Below are positions 40,662 through 42,844 of a stretch of DNA of 64,000 bases, one piece after another. The stretch is taken from NCBI RefSeq assembly GCF_003334405.1, contig NZ_QOWM01000005.1, one strand, 5' to 3'. The number at the start of each line of letters is the position of its first letter. Position 1 is the first letter of the stretch. The notes below the pieces were generated by a model. The model was not told the DNA's origin and did not search any database. It saw only the letters and a list, made by a program, of their open reading frames with translations. The position numbers and the translations under genes are program-made. The stretch comes from Escherichia coli (GTDB taxonomy: Bacteria > Pseudomonadota > Gammaproteobacteria > Enterobacterales > Enterobacteriaceae).

Positions 40662-41813
40662 ATGTCACTTGTCACCGATCTACCCGCCATTTTCGATCAG
40701 TTCTCTGAAGCTCGCCAGAAAGGCTTTCTCACCGTCATGGATCTCAAGGAGCGCGGCATTCCGCTGGTTGGCACTTACTGCACCTTTATGCCGCAAGAGA
40801 TCCCGATGGCAGCCGGTGCGGTTGTGGTTTCGCTCTGTTCTACCTCTGATGAAACCATTGAAGAAGCGGAGAAAGATCTGCCGCGCAACCTCTGCCCGCT
40901 GATTAAAAGCAGCTACGGCTTCGGCAAAACCGATAAATGCCCCTACTTCTACTTTTCGGATCTGGTGGTCGGTGAAACCACCTGCGACGGCAAAAAGAAA
41001 ATGTATGAATACATGGCGGAGTTTAAGCCCGTTCATGTGATGCAGTTGCCGAACAGCGTTAAGGACGATGCCTCGCGTGCGTTATGGAAAGCCGAGATGC
41101 TGCGCTTGCAAAAAACGGTAGAAGAACGTTTTGGGCACGAGATTAGCGAAGATGCTCTGCGCGATGCCATTGCGCTGAAAAACCGCGAACGTCGCGCACT
41201 GGCCAATTTTTATCATCTTGGGCAGTTAAATCCTCCGGCGCTTAGCGGCAGCGACATTCTGAAAGTGGTCTACGGCGCAACCTTCCGGTTCGATAAAGAG
41301 GCGTTGATCAATGAACTGGATGCAATGACCGCCCGCGTTCGTCAGCAGTGGGAAGAAGGCCAGCGACTGGACCCGCGTCCACGCATTTTAATCACCGGCT
41401 GCCCGATTGGCGGCGCAGCAGAAAAAGTGGTGCGGGCAATTGAAGAGAATGGCGGCTGGGTTGTCGGTTATGAAAACTGCACTGGGGCGAAAGCGACCGA
41501 GCAATGCGTGGCGGAAACGGGCGATGTCTACGACGCGCTGGCGGATAAATATCTGGCGATTGGCTGCTCCTGTGTTTCGCCGAACGATCAGCGCCTGCAA
41601 ATGCTCAGCCAGATGGTGGAAGAATATCAGGTCGATGGCGTAGTTGATGTGATTTTGCAGGCGTGCCATACCTACGCGGTGGAATCGCTGGCGATTAAAC
41701 GTCATGTGCGTCAGCAGCACAACATTCCTTATATCGCTATTGAAACAGACTATTCCACCTCAGATGTCGGGCAGCTCAGTACCCGTGTCGCGGCCTTTAT
41801 TGAGATGCTGTAA
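40662..41813 (+). CDS. yjiM: 2-hydroxyacyl-CoA dehydratase-like protein YjiM (HgdB/BcrB-type component)
   Basis: 383-aa product from ATG 40662 (MSLVTDLPAIFDQFSEARQKGF); conserved cysteines. Confidence 0.85.
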   Translation: MSLVTDLPAIFDQFSEARQKGFLTVMDLKERGIPLVGTYCTFMPQEIPMAAGAVVVSLCSTSDETIEEAEKDLPRNLCPLIKSSYGFGKTDKCPYFYFSDLVVGETTCDGKKKMYEYMAEFKPVHVMQLPNSVKDDASRALWKAEMLRLQKTVEERFGHEISEDALRDAIALKNRERRALANFYHLGQLNPPALSGSDILKVVYGATFRFDKEALINELDAMTARVRQQWEEGQRLDPRPRILITGCPIGGAAEKVVRAIEENGGWVVGYENCTGAKATEQCVAETGDVYDALADKYLAIGCSCVSPNDQRLQMLSQMVEEYQVDGVVDVILQACHTYAVESLAIKRHVRQQHNIPYIAIETDYSTSDVGQLSTRVAAFIEML

Positions 41814-41816
41814 GGA

Positions 41817-42590
41817 GTGGCAGTGACATATTCGATTGGCATTGATTCTGGTTCTACCGCCACCAAAGGGATCTTACTGGCAGACGGCGTGATTACGCGC
41901 CGTTTCCTCGTTCCAACACCCTTTCGTCCGGCAACAGCAATTACTGAAGCCTGGGAAACTCTGCGCGAAGGGTTAGAGACAACGCCGTTTCTGACGCTCA
42001 CCGGCTATGGACGGCAACTGGTGGATTTTGCCGATAAACAAGTGACGGAAATCTCCTGTCATGGGCTGGGCGCACGGTTTCTTGCGCCAGCAACGCGCGC
42101 GGTAATCGACATCGGTGGTCAGGACAGCAAAGTGATTCAGCTTGATGATGACGGTAACCTGTGCGATTTCCTGATGAATGACAAATGCGCGGCGGGCACC
42201 GGGCGTTTCCTGGAGGTGATCTCGCGCACGCTTGGCACCAGCGTCGAGCAACTCGACAGCATTACCGAAAATGTCACGCCGCACGCCATCACGAGTATGT
42301 GCACAGTGTTTGCCGAATCAGAAGTGATCAGCCTGCGCTCAGCGGGCGTCGCGCCAGAAGCGATTCTCGCCGGAGTGATTAACGCGATGGCGCGGAGGAG
42401 TGCCAATTTCATTGCTCGTCTCTCCTGTGAAGCGCCGATTCTGTTTACTGGTGGCGTTAGTCATTGCCAGACGTTTGCCCGGATGCTGGAATCTCATCTG
42501 GGAATGCCGGTAAATACCCATCCTGATGCGCAATTTGCTGGCGCAATTGGCGCGGCGGTAATTGGTCAACGAGTGAGGACACGCCGATGA
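41817..42590 (+). CDS. yjiL: BadF/BadG/BcrA/BcrD-type ATPase YjiL (activator of 2-hydroxyacyl-CoA dehydratase-like enzymes)
   Basis: 257-aa ORF with GTG start, GIDSGSTATKG actin-fold ATPase motif and DKCAAGTGRFLE cysteine motif; 3 bp after yjiM. Confidence 0.85.
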   Translation: MAVTYSIGIDSGSTATKGILLADGVITRRFLVPTPFRPATAITEAWETLREGLETTPFLTLTGYGRQLVDFADKQVTEISCHGLGARFLAPATRAVIDIGGQDSKVIQLDDDGNLCDFLMNDKCAAGTGRFLEVISRTLGTSVEQLDSITENVTPHAITSMCTVFAESEVISLRSAGVAPEAILAGVINAMARRSANFIARLSCEAPILFTGGVSHCQTFARMLESHLGMPVNTHPDAQFAGAIGAAVIGQRVRTRR

Positions 42591-42844
42591 AAGAGTTTTT
42601 ATTTTTATTTCACTCCACAGTCGGCGTCATACAAACCCGCAAAGCGTTGCAGGCAGCGGGCATGACTTTTCGCGTCAGCGATATTCCCCGTGATTTACGC
42701 GGCGGCTGCGGGTTATGCATTTGGCTGACCTGTCCCCCCGGCGAGGAAATACAATGGGTGATCCCTGGGCTGACTGAGTCAATTTATTGTCAGCAGGATG
42801 GTGTCTGGCGCTGCATTGCACATTACCGGGTTTCTCCGCGTTAA
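42587..42844 (+). CDS. hypothetical 85-aa protein translationally coupled to yjiL (ATGA overlap); DUF3343-like?
   Basis: [57 protein letters not shown]; start codon overlaps yjiL stop. Confidence 0.5.

What the first reader, a model, noticed from the sequence alone, without database searches (positions are those of the whole stretch)
40662..42844. yjiM-yjiL dehydratase/activase-like pair with a translationally coupled 85-codon cysteine-motif ORF
YjiL has the actin-fold ATPase signature of BadF/BcrA-type electron-transfer activators, and YjiM resembles the catalytic component of 2-hydroxyacyl-CoA dehydratases. The genes are 3 bp apart. A third ORF (42587-42844, [14 protein letters not shown]...[16 protein letters not shown]) begins with an ATGA overlap on the yjiL stop, which argues for real coupled translation; I do not recognise it as a named K-12 gene. 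A three-gene oxygen-sensitive-type radical module in a facultative anaerobe with unknown substrate is worth a second look.
Basis: partly seen in the sequence, partly recalled or inferred. Interest (0 to 1): 0.5.

Follow-up and report, generated by a model that had tools for sequence, protein, structure and literature searches.

The report
E. coli yjiM-yjiL-ytiA reductase operon
These are three already-annotated E. coli genes: an oxygen-sensitive iron-sulfur reductase, its ATP-driven electron pump and a small cysteine carrier protein. Their substrate is unknown, and comparative genomics points to selenium (or sulfur) handling rather than acyl-CoA dehydration.

Summary
yjiM (40662-41813), yjiL (41823-42590 by RefSeq; an alternative GTG lies at 41817) and an 85-codon ORF (42587-42844) lie head to tail, and the ORF's ATG overlaps the yjiL TGA (ATGA).

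The small ORF is not new. It is ytiA (b4715 in MG1655), a DUF3343/PF11823 "putative Se/S carrier" (Pfam E=5e-13). It is annotated in all 29 sampled full-length E. coli hits and is under purifying selection.

The "dehydratase" reading is outdated. YjiM is a double-cubane [8Fe-9S] cluster protein (NF040772, 532 bits against a cut-off of 350; PDB 6ENO E=4e-75; all seven motif cysteines present). YjiL is its archerase-type ATPase.

The trio is adjacent, in the same order, in 25/25 gammaproteobacterial loci.

In Firmicutes, YjiM-type genes 58-61% identical to E. coli YjiM sit inside selenium clusters:
- yqeC-yqeB-yedF-selD-DCCP-activase-mocA-xdh
- DCCP-activase-Se-dependent XDH-mocA-SclA-selD
- selB-LysR_Se-SclA-like-DUF3343-activase-DCCP

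The best reading is an ATP-driven low-potential reductase working with a single-cysteine chalcogen carrier, probably in selenium mobilisation.

The genes and the provisional selenium link are already published (Lin 2015; Haft 2022). The substrate is still unknown but could be tested in E. coli. Interest is moderate.

The parts
40662..41813 (+). yjiM: class-II double-cubane [8Fe-9S] cluster protein (DCCP), 383 aa. The seven motif cysteines are C40, C59, C78, C108, C273, C302 and C335.
   Evidence: NF040772 scores 532 bits against a cut-off of 350. PDB 6ENO/7YYL match at E=4e-75 over residues 26-383. The seven Cys are invariant in 80/80 YjiM-type sequences and aligned with DCCP_Ch. RefSeq names it 'double-cubane-cluster-containing anaerobic reductase'.
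41813..41817 (+). AGGAG Shine-Dalgarno for yjiL, overlapping the yjiM stop codon
   Evidence: Read directly from the sequence. It lies 5 nt before GTG 41823.
41823..42590 (+). yjiL: archerase-type ATPase/electron donor (DCCP-R, 'activase'), 255 aa, GTG start. An alternative GTG lies at 41817.
   Evidence: TIGR00241 scores 364 bits against a cut-off of 125. PDB 1HUX matches at E=9e-53, 4EHT at 2e-52 and DCCP-R 7YYL_E at 5e-47. C122 aligns with HgdC Cys127 and C160 with the second conserved cluster cysteine. GIDSGST and DIGGQD motifs are present.
42575..42579 (+). GAGGA Shine-Dalgarno for ytiA, inside the 3' end of yjiL
   Evidence: Read directly from the sequence. It lies 7 nt before ATG 42587.
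42587..42590 (+). ATGA: the ytiA start overlapping the yjiL stop, a coupling-type junction
   Evidence: Of the 19 gammaproteobacterial loci where the script located the ytiA start, 16 show ATGA or TAATG; the Hafnia locus and one Aeromonas locus show a GGAGG-type Shine-Dalgarno instead. In six loci the start was not located. The same 4-nt overlap occurs in K. pneumoniae.
42587..42844 (+). ytiA (b4715): 85-aa DUF3343 / PF11823 'putative Se/S carrier' protein
   Evidence: Pfam matches at E=5.4e-13 over residues 4-59. RefSeq annotates ytiA. Orthologue alignment A1. Purifying selection. AF2 model has pLDDT 90.4 and a ferredoxin-like beta-alpha-beta-beta-alpha-beta-beta fold.
42686..42718 (+). Conserved loop P34-R35-x5-C41-G42-x-C44 ([12 protein letters not shown]). 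The C41 codon is 42707-42709 and the C44 codon is 42716-42718.
   Evidence: Across 100 diverse DUF3343 sequences C41 is 98% conserved, G42 95%, P34 99%, R35 80% and C44 only 71%. C44 is replaced by A, S or G in Aeromonas, Hafnia and Morganella.
42734..42739 (+). C6 homopolymer inside ytiA, the site of the 1-nt deletion that frameshifts the C600 allele
   Evidence: C600 product ...[11 protein letters not shown].

Best explanation
yjiM-yjiL-ytiA is a conserved, already annotated three-gene operon.

Gene identities (shown by sequence, about 0.95):
- YjiM is a homodimer-type double-cubane [8Fe-9S] cluster protein, the acceptor and catalytic reductase.
- YjiL is its partner ATPase, a dimer bridged by a [4Fe-4S] cluster. 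It uses ATP hydrolysis to push a low-potential electron into YjiM, as shown biochemically and structurally for the Carboxydothermus DCCP/DCCP-R pair.
- YtiA is an 85-aa DUF3343 protein. Its only universally conserved reactive residue is Cys41, in a P-R-x5-C-G loop, and its translation is probably coupled to yjiL through ATGA.

Role (inferred, about 0.5): the system acts in selenium, or possibly sulfur, trafficking.

Specific step (inferred, about 0.25): YtiA carries a chalcogen species on Cys41, such as a perselenide, selenotrisulfide or persulfide. YjiM/YjiL then reduces it, or a small or organic Se compound, with ATP-energised electrons. The product would be selenide-level Se for SelD and the Se-dependent molybdenum-hydroxylase cofactor pathway.
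For: Gene identities:
- YjiM: NCBIfam NF040772 at 532 bits; PDB 6ENO at E=4e-75; seven motif Cys invariant in 80/80 sequences.
- YjiL: TIGR00241 at 364 bits; the 1HUX alignment shows the cluster Cys and ATP motifs.
- YtiA: PF11823 at E=5e-13.

Linkage of the three genes:
- DUF3343 directly follows the activase in 25/25 gammaproteobacterial YjiM loci.
- K. pneumoniae and a metagenomic relative have the same order, while the flanking genes differ.
- A coupling-type junction is seen in 16 of the 19 loci where the start was located.
- Firmicutes show independent gene orders: DUF3343-activase-DCCP in L067, and DCCP paralogue-DUF3343-activase in L075 and L083.

Selenium context of YjiM-type DCCPs that are 58-61% identical to E. 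coli YjiM:
- L061: yqeC-yqeB-yedF-selD-DCCP-activase-mocA-xdh.
- L058 and L066 (Enterococcus): DCCP-activase-Se-dependent XDH (TIGR03311, 1535 bits)-mocA-SclA (715 bits)-selD.
- L067: selB-LysR_Sec_metab-SclA-like-DUF3343-activase-DCCP-amidohydrolase-PatB.
- L059 and L060: DCCP-activase-SclA-like, with YedF-DUF3343 convergent.

DUF3343 relatives elsewhere sit next to YedE-like Sulf_transp, TusA and YedF-like genes.

Literature:
- DUF3343 was proposed as a Se/S chaperone and was STRING-linked to an activase and an HGD subunit in Slackia (PMC5322559).
- 955 of 970 DCCPs lie in SelD-positive genomes, and YjiM is named as a family member (bioRxiv 10.1101/2022.07.06.499078).
- YjiM is described as a 'class II' DCCP (PMC7317905).
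Against: - There is no experimental datum for YjiM, YjiL or YtiA function in E. coli. The only phenotype found in the literature is a role of the yjiL-mdtM cluster in uptake of proline-rich antimicrobial peptides (Krizsan 2015, cited in PMC8801401).
- The E. coli and other gammaproteobacterial loci contain no selenium gene nearby.
- Only 10 of 55 Firmicutes-type loci carry a specific Se marker within 6 kb. Only 7 of 55 carry DUF3343, so the carrier is not obligatory for YjiM-type DCCPs.
- The DUF3343 family has no Se-specific clade and also occurs in SelD-lacking organisms (PMC5322559), so sulfur remains possible.
- From my own knowledge, classical E. coli screens for selenoprotein synthesis found selA-D and not yjiML.
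- Jeoung et al. consider a CoA ester or other large substrate possible for YjiM, because it lacks the channel-closing N-terminal helices (PMC7317905).
- No convincing FNR site was found upstream.
Confidence: 0.5

Rival explanations
1. YjiM/YjiL would be a 2-hydroxyacyl-CoA dehydratase (or another CoA-ester radical enzyme) with its activator, and YtiA an accessory subunit.
For: - YjiM belongs to the HGD-D superfamily. PF06050 is recorded for the K. pneumoniae orthologue, and HadC and BzdN give weak hits.
- MG1655's own annotation still reads 'putative dehydratase subunit'.
Against: - HadC scores 95.8 bits and HadB 19.9 bits against cut-offs of 700 and 750.
- Dehydratases are alpha/beta heterodimers, but the 64-kb window holds only one HGD-D gene.
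- The 7-Cys double-cubane motif is fully conserved, rather than a 3-Cys motif.
- The neighbourhoods of close homologues are selenium and molybdenum-cofactor genes, not acyl-CoA metabolism. No CoA-transferase genes were seen among the loci annotated.
Confidence: 0.1
2. YtiA would be a maturation factor rather than a substrate carrier. It would deliver the bridging mu2-sulfide to the double-cubane cluster of YjiM, or a selenide in the case of the Se-bridged analogue that Haft raised as a formal possibility.
For: - ytiA is tightly coupled to the reductase/ATPase genes in all 25 gammaproteobacterial loci.
- It has the single-cysteine carrier architecture.
- DCCPs co-occur with SelD, and a Se-bridged 8Fe-9S cluster has been suggested (bioRxiv 10.1101/2022.07.06.499078).
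- SclA-like cysteine desulfurase/selenocysteine lyase genes lie next to DCCP-activase in several Firmicutes loci.
Against: - 48 of 55 Firmicutes YjiM-type loci have no DUF3343 within 6 kb.
- The solved cluster contains sulfide (PMC7317905).
- DUF3343 relatives also pair with YedE/TusA-type transport and relay genes that have no DCCP nearby. This fits a general carrier better than a dedicated cluster-assembly factor.
Confidence: 0.15
3. The system would act on sulfur rather than selenium. It would reduce a persulfide, polysulfide or organosulfur compound, with YtiA as a TusA-like persulfide relay.
For: - PatB-family C-S lyases flank the DCCP in 5 Firmicutes loci.
- DUF3343 pairs with Sulf_transp and TusA genes.
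- DUF3343 also occurs in SelD-lacking organisms and has no Se-specific clade (PMC5322559).
Against: - The most specific neighbours are selenium markers scored above curated cut-offs: SelD, SelB, YqeB, YqeC, selenium-type YedF (TIGR03527), SclA and Se-dependent XDH.
- 955 of 970 DCCPs lie in SelD-positive genomes (Haft 2022).
Confidence: 0.2
4. ytiA would be a chance or decaying ORF with no function of its own.
For: - The C600 allele is frameshifted at a C6 run.
- Truncated alleles occur in public E. coli data, e.g. a 56-aa form on 31 contigs.
- The O157 island insertion replaces the last ~15 codons.
- The C-terminal 25 residues are poorly conserved.
Against: - Pfam matches at E=5e-13.
- dN/dS is 0.14-0.31, with third-position bias.
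- The gene is present in 25/25 gammaproteobacterial loci, including Aeromonas, Hafnia and Morganella.
- The AF2 model is confident, at pLDDT 90.
- All the natural lesions seen spare residues 1-51 of the domain, including the Cys41 loop.
Confidence: 0.03

Closest known systems
DCCP / DCCP-R of Carboxydothermus hydrogenoformans (CHY_0487/CHY_0488; PDB 6ENO, 7YYL)
   Same: It has the same two-component architecture, with adjacent genes for a single HGD-D-type subunit carrying the 7-Cys motif and an ASKHA-fold ATPase. YjiM aligns over residues 26-383 at E=4e-75, 39% identity in the MAFFT alignment. YjiL matches the DCCP-R chain 7YYL_E at E=5e-47.
   Different: YjiM is about 36 residues shorter at the N-terminus and lacks the channel-closing helices ('class II' in PMC7317905). 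It has a 3-residue deletion before C302. The E. coli operon also carries a translationally coupled DUF3343 gene. Whether the C. hydrogenoformans locus has one was not examined here, and the papers read do not mention it.
2-hydroxyacyl-CoA dehydratases with their activators (HgdAB/HgdC, HadBC/HadI) and class I benzoyl-CoA reductases
   Same: The activator ATPase family is the same: YjiL matches HgdC 1HUX at E=9e-53 and HadI 4EHT at 2e-52. The acceptor belongs to the same superfamily (HGD-D, PF06050).
   Different: Those enzymes are heteromeric, with one 3-Cys [4Fe-4S] cluster per subunit, and they act on CoA esters. YjiM is a single gene with the 7-Cys double-cubane motif and scores far below the HadB, HadC, BzdN and BcrB/C cut-offs.
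DUF3343 (PF11823) genes in selenium loci (Lin et al. 2015; Kayrouz et al. 2022) and TusA/YedF-type sulfur/selenium relay proteins
   Same: It is a small single-domain protein with one essential-looking cysteine. It is encoded next to YedE-like transporters, YedF, Sec-lyase-like desulfurases, SelD, and activase/HGD-D genes (PMC5322559).
Selenium-dependent molybdenum hydroxylase maturation loci (SelD, YqeB, YqeC, SclA/EF2568, MocA; the Enterococcus faecalis type)
   Same: YjiM-type DCCP and activase genes are embedded co-directionally in such loci in Enterococcus moraviensis, Enterococcus sp. DIV0212c and a Bacillota MAG.
   Different: In E. coli the trio is not next to the yqeB/yqeC/xdhD region, to selD or to any other recognised selenium gene within 6 kb. 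The functional connection is an inference from other phyla.

Membership tests
Double-cubane cluster protein (DCCP; NCBIfam NF040772) | Whole-protein score above the curated NF040772 cut-off | tested here: met
   532 bits against a cut-off of 350, covering profile positions 1-372 of 372.
Double-cubane cluster protein (DCCP; NCBIfam NF040772) | The seven conserved cysteines: six cluster ligands plus one next to the cluster | tested here: met
   By alignment to 6ENO, C40, C59, C78, C108, C273, C302 and C335 match DCCP_Ch 76, 95, 114, 144, 309, 341 and 374. All are invariant in 80/80 YjiM-type sequences. The published spacing string did not match YjiM as a literal regex. My own count of the spacings in 6ENO also departs from the published string by 1-2 residues.
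Double-cubane cluster protein (DCCP; NCBIfam NF040772) | A single subunit type (homodimer) with an adjacent archerase-type ATPase gene | tested here: met
   The 64-kb window has one HGD-D gene, with yjiL 9 nt downstream. The oligomeric state itself was not testable.
Double-cubane cluster protein (DCCP; NCBIfam NF040772) | An actual [8Fe-9S] cluster and ATP-dependent reduction by the partner | not testable with these tools
   This needs anaerobic purification, spectroscopy or a structure. It has been shown only for the C. hydrogenoformans proteins (PMC7317905, PMC9351452).
Archerase / acyl-CoA dehydratase activase (TIGR00241, PF01869) | HMM score above the cut-off, ASKHA ATP-binding motifs, and two cysteines that bridge a [4Fe-4S] cluster in the dimer | tested here: met
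   364 bits against a cut-off of 125. GIDSGSTATK and VIDIGGQDSK are present. C122 aligns with HgdC Cys127 and C160 with the second conserved cysteine. The assignment of HgdC C127 and C166 as cluster ligands comes from my knowledge of the 1HUX structure.
DUF3343 / Se_S_carrier (PF11823) | Pfam match and the family's conserved cysteine | tested here: met
   E=5.4e-13 over residues 4-59. In 100 diverse members C41 is 98% conserved, G42 95%, P34 99% and F8 98%, and YtiA has all four.
DUF3343 / Se_S_carrier (PF11823) | Actual binding or transfer of Se or S | not testable with these tools
   This is a bioinformatic prediction only (PMC5322559). No characterised member was found in the literature searches.
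2-hydroxyacyl-CoA dehydratase (HadBC / HgdAB type) | Two paralogous subunits (alpha and beta), each scoring as an equivalog | tested here: not met
   HadC scores 95.8 bits against 700 and HadB 19.9 bits against 750. No second HGD-D gene lies in the window.
Class I benzoyl-CoA reductase (BcrABCD / BzdNOPQ) | Four subunits: two ATPase paralogues plus two HGD-D-type paralogues | tested here: not met
   BzdN scores 79 bits against 454, BcrC 59 against 421, BzdQ 162 against 380 and BcrA 133 against 578. There is only one gene of each type.

The most novel reading that the evidence does not exclude
YjiM/YjiL/YtiA would be the missing ATP-driven selenium-mobilising reductase of enterobacteria and many anaerobes. 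YtiA would hold a selenium species on Cys41. The double-cubane enzyme would then reduce it, or cleave an organo- or poly-chalcogen bond, to selenide-level Se. That Se would be handed to SelD and to the YqeB/YqeC selenium-molybdenum cofactor pathway. This would give the [8Fe-9S] cluster its first physiological substrate. A more radical variant, the maturation rival above, is that YtiA delivers a bridging selenide into the cluster itself.
Probability: 0.3. Interest if true: 0.75.

Novelty: already known. Interest (0 to 1): 0.35.

Why it matters
Double-cubane cluster proteins were discovered in 2018. They reduce acetylene, azide and hydrazine in vitro, but their physiological substrate is unknown. 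How bacteria generate the reduced selenium that SelD consumes is also unsettled.

E. coli carries a clean, genetically tractable copy of the DCCP/ATPase pair, fused translationally to a predicted Se/S carrier. Close homologues in Firmicutes sit inside SelD, YedF, SclA, YqeB/C and Se-dependent xanthine dehydrogenase operons.

The genes themselves are not new. Their value is as a ready test bed. A handful of knock-outs and 75Se labelling experiments in E. coli could connect a nitrogenase-like cofactor to selenium metabolism, or rule that connection out.

Tried and rejected
- **PDB sequence search with YtiA.** It gave only chance CxxC-type hits (E=0.075 and 0.13). No solved relative exists by sequence.
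- **NCBIfam on YtiA.** No family matched.
- **Promoter and terminator scan of 39000-45200.** Counts were at or below the shuffled expectation. No terminator lies between ytiA and yjiK, so the scan was uninformative.
- **Search for FNR and CRP boxes upstream of yjiM.** Nothing matched better than 3 mismatches in the intergenic region. A 2-mismatch FNR-like site lies inside the 3' end of yjiN (40448-40461). It is not convincing.
- **Literal regex of the published 7-Cys spacing.** It did not match YjiM. By my count the published numbers also differ slightly from 6ENO itself, so membership was decided by alignment.
- **Test for selenocysteine-containing DUF3343 genes missed by stop-to-stop ORF calling.** TGA was read through in all 80 loci. 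No additional hits appeared.
- **Literature searches for ytiA and b4715.** They turned up nothing on the E. coli gene. The 'ytiA' hits checked are the B. subtilis L31 paralogue.
- **The idea that a CxxC redox or Fe-S site is the functional motif.** I rejected it because C44 is only 71% conserved and is lost in Aeromonas, Hafnia and Morganella, whereas C41 is universal.
- **Complex prediction of YtiA with YjiM or YjiL.** I did not attempt it, because the structure tool returns no inter-chain confidence.
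Full report
**What is in the sequence**

The region 40662-42844 holds three head-to-tail ORFs on the + strand.
- yjiM runs from ATG 40662 to TAA 41813 (383 aa).
- yjiL ends at TGA 42588-42590. Its first possible start is GTG 41817, 3 nt after yjiM. RefSeq uses GTG 41823 (255 aa), which sits 5 nt after an AGGAG.
- The third ORF runs from ATG 42587 to 42844 (85 aa). Its ATG overlaps the yjiL stop as ATGA, and a GAGGA lies 7 nt upstream.

The window is 100% identical to E. 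coli strain WG5 and about 98.3% identical to K-12.

**The small ORF is a known gene**

In 29 of the 29 sampled E. coli genomes with a full-length match, it is annotated as ytiA or as 'DUF3343 domain-containing protein / putative Se/S carrier protein'. In MG1655 it is ytiA, b4715, YP_009518833.1.

Evidence that it is a real gene:
- Pfam gives PF11823 (Se_S_carrier, formerly DUF3343) at E=5.4e-13.
- Orthologues at 52-84% identity in the aligned set occur in Citrobacter, Klebsiella, Raoultella, Kosakonia, Atlantibacter and Yokenella among others.
- Within E. coli, dN/dS is 0.14-0.21, similar to yjiL at 0.10-0.17.
- Between genera, pN/pS over the first 60 codons is 0.13-0.31, and differences pile up at third codon positions.
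- AlphaFold2 gives a confident model (pLDDT 90.4) of a ferredoxin-like beta-alpha-beta-beta-alpha-beta-beta sandwich.

Across 100 diverse family members the conserved residues are F8, L21, G25, P34, R35, C41 (98%) and G42. C44 is only 71% conserved and is lost in Aeromonas, Hafnia and Morganella. The functional 'cysteine motif' is therefore a single cysteine in a P-R-x5-C-G loop, not a CxxC site.

**YjiM and YjiL**

YjiM is not a dehydratase subunit.
- It scores 532 bits on NF040772, 'double-cubane-cluster-containing anaerobic reductase' (cut-off 350). It scores only 95.8 and 19.9 bits on HadC and HadB (cut-offs 700 and 750).
- Its best solved relative is the Carboxydothermus double-cubane cluster protein, 6ENO/7YYL, at E=4e-75.
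- The seven motif cysteines (C40, C59, C78, C108, C273, C302, C335) align with those of 6ENO and are invariant in 80 of 80 YjiM-type sequences.
- The 64-kb window contains only one such gene, as expected for a homodimeric DCCP and unlike heterodimeric dehydratases.

YjiL is an archerase-type ATPase.
- It scores 364 bits on TIGR00241.
- It matches HgdC 1HUX at E=9e-53 and DCCP-R 7YYL_E at E=5e-47.
- The ATP motifs and the two cluster-bridging cysteines are present.

The literature already names YjiM. It is called a 'class II' DCCP lacking the channel-closing N-terminal helices (PMC7317905) and a member of NF040772 (bioRxiv 10.1101/2022.07.06.499078).

**Is the three-gene unit real?**

A scan of species-representative genomes returned 80 YjiM-type loci, 57-96% identical to E. 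coli YjiM. With HMMs built here, a DUF3343 gene directly follows the activase in all 25 gammaproteobacterial loci, which span Enterobacteriaceae, Hafnia, Morganella and Aeromonas.

The ytiA start was located in 19 of those loci. The junction is ATGA or TAATG in 16 of them. The Hafnia locus and one Aeromonas locus show a GGAGG-type Shine-Dalgarno before the ATG instead. In K. pneumoniae the same trio, with the same 4-nt overlap, has entirely different downstream neighbours. The trio, not yjiN or yjiK, is therefore the conserved unit.

Among the 55 Firmicutes-type loci only 7 carry a DUF3343 within 6 kb. Those 7 use different gene orders: DUF3343-activase-DCCP, or DCCP paralogue-DUF3343-activase. 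This argues for repeated functional association rather than a single inherited arrangement. Reading TGA through revealed no hidden selenocysteine-containing DUF3343.

**What the neighbours say**

NCBIfam models, scored above their curated cut-offs, place several YjiM-type DCCPs inside selenium gene clusters.
- **Bacillota MAG (L061):** yqeC - yqeB - yedF (TIGR03527) - selD - DCCP - activase - mocA - xanthine dehydrogenase FAD/Fe-S/Mo subunits, all co-directional.
- **Enterococcus moraviensis (L058), and similarly L066:** xdhC - ABC transporter - DCCP - activase - selenium-dependent xanthine dehydrogenase (TIGR03311, 1535 bits) - mocA - selenocysteine lyase SclA (715 bits) - selD.
- **Tyzzerella MAG (L067):** selB - selenium-associated LysR (NF040786) - SclA-like - DUF3343 - activase - DCCP - amidohydrolase - PatB C-S lyase.
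- **Acetobacterium (L059, L060):** DCCP - activase - SclA-like, with YedF - DUF3343 convergent.

In total, 10 of 55 Firmicutes-type loci carry at least one specific selenium marker, and 14 of 55 if PatB-type C-S lyases are counted. I had no matched random-locus control. The enrichment argument rests on these being genes present in one or a few copies per genome.

Starting from the carrier side, YtiA-like DUF3343 proteins elsewhere sit after YedE-like Sulf_transp genes, after Sulf_transp-TusA, after a YedF-like TusA/DsrE fusion, or again after HGD-D plus activase.

**Agreement with the literature**

- Lin et al. 2015 (PMC5322559) proposed DUF3343 as a Se/S trafficking chaperone. Their STRING table for Slackia already lists an 'activase' and a '2-hydroxyglutaryl-CoA dehydratase subunit' next to DUF3343, YedF, a Sec lyase and SelD.
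- Kayrouz et al. (bioRxiv 10.1101/2022.04.13.486033) found duf3343 among the five genes that most often overlap selD.
- Haft and Gwadz found 955 of 970 DCCPs in SelD-positive genomes. They suggested either a selenium-containing substrate or, as a formal possibility, a Se-bridged cluster.
- A 2023 preprint (PMC10418091) draws DCCP and DCCP-R as 'putative selenium metabolism' genes.
- None of the papers I could read joins DCCP, DCCP-R and DUF3343 into one unit or discusses E. coli ytiA.

**Mechanism I commit to**

By homology, YjiL dimers hydrolyse ATP to inject a low-potential electron into the double-cubane cluster of YjiM. This is shown for the Carboxydothermus pair only.

Inferred at about 0.5: the system works in selenium (less likely sulfur) trafficking.

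Inferred at about 0.25: YtiA presents a chalcogen adduct on Cys41, or accepts the product, and YjiM reduces it to selenide level for SelD and the Se-molybdenum cofactor route.

Evidence against this reading:
- No selenium gene lies next to the trio in E. coli or in any other gammaproteobacterial locus examined.
- Most Firmicutes loci lack DUF3343.
- The family has no Se-specific clade.
- No experimental data exist.
- The only reported phenotype of this region concerns uptake of proline-rich antimicrobial peptides through yjiL-mdtM (cited in PMC8801401).

Rivals and their weights:
- a sulfur rather than selenium role (0.2);
- YtiA as a donor of the bridging sulfide or selenide for cluster maturation (0.15);
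- a CoA-ester dehydratase or reductase (0.1);
- a non-functional ORF (0.03).

**Verdict**

The genes, their families and the provisional selenium link are all already on record, so this is not a discovery. What remains open and directly testable in E. coli is the physiological substrate of a double-cubane enzyme and the role of its coupled carrier protein. Interest is moderate, at 0.35.

Noticed in passing
window 42797-42844; L006 5088-5354 and 5666-7837: In O157:H7 strains the homology with the window stops at 42797. An island carrying the T3SS effector gene espX6 is inserted right after ytiA. It replaces the last ~15 codons (88-aa product) and displaces yjiK.
   Followed up: partly
window 42734-42739 (C6 run inside ytiA); L002 3588-3844: K-12 C600 has lost one C from this homopolymer, and RefSeq marks its ytiA as a frameshifted pseudogene, whereas MG1655 is intact. 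Other truncated or extended alleles occur in public E. coli data, e.g. P0044 (56 aa) on 31 contigs. I did not determine whether these are sequencing errors or real slippage variants.
   Followed up: partly
window ~36582-37526 (-), = L001 2083-3027: The Rpn-family recombination-promoting nuclease gene upstream of mdtM is annotated intact in this WG5-type strain. It is the rpnD pseudogene (b4584) in MG1655 and is frameshifted in O157.
   Followed up: no
L003 8693-8728 (MG1655 4568692-4568727), upstream of mdtM: MG1655 annotates an 11-codon small protein gene, ytiE (b4823), just upstream of mdtM. I did not check whether it is present in the window.
   Followed up: no
window 42798-43769 versus 42909-43769: The longest ORF for yjiK starts at an ATG inside ytiA (42798). 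The RefSeq start is GTG 42909, which leaves a 64-nt spacer with no predicted terminator after ytiA.
   Followed up: partly
window 40448-40461 (inside the 3' end of yjiN): The sequence TTTATCCGTGTCAA matches the FNR consensus TTGAT-N4-ATCAA with 2 mismatches, about 214 nt upstream of the yjiM start. The yjiN-yjiM intergenic region has nothing better than 3 mismatches.
   Followed up: no
proteins P0156, P0190, P0179: Some proteins contain several tandem DUF3343-like stretches: 485 aa with 5, 407 aa with 6, and 2562 aa with 4. This architecture is not mentioned in the papers I read.
   Followed up: no
L075 2191-5812 (-) and L083; L060 4227-5603 and 10264-10893: Dorea genomes carry two DCCPs back to back. 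One is a 440-aa long form in an SclA-like-DCCP-DUF3343-activase operon, and the other is a divergent YjiM-type short form. In Acetobacterium the DCCP is preceded by a [FeFe]-hydrogenase-like gene and followed, after YedF-DUF3343, by a corrinoid protein of the kind described in 'mlp' methyl-selenide clusters (PMC10418091).
   Followed up: partly
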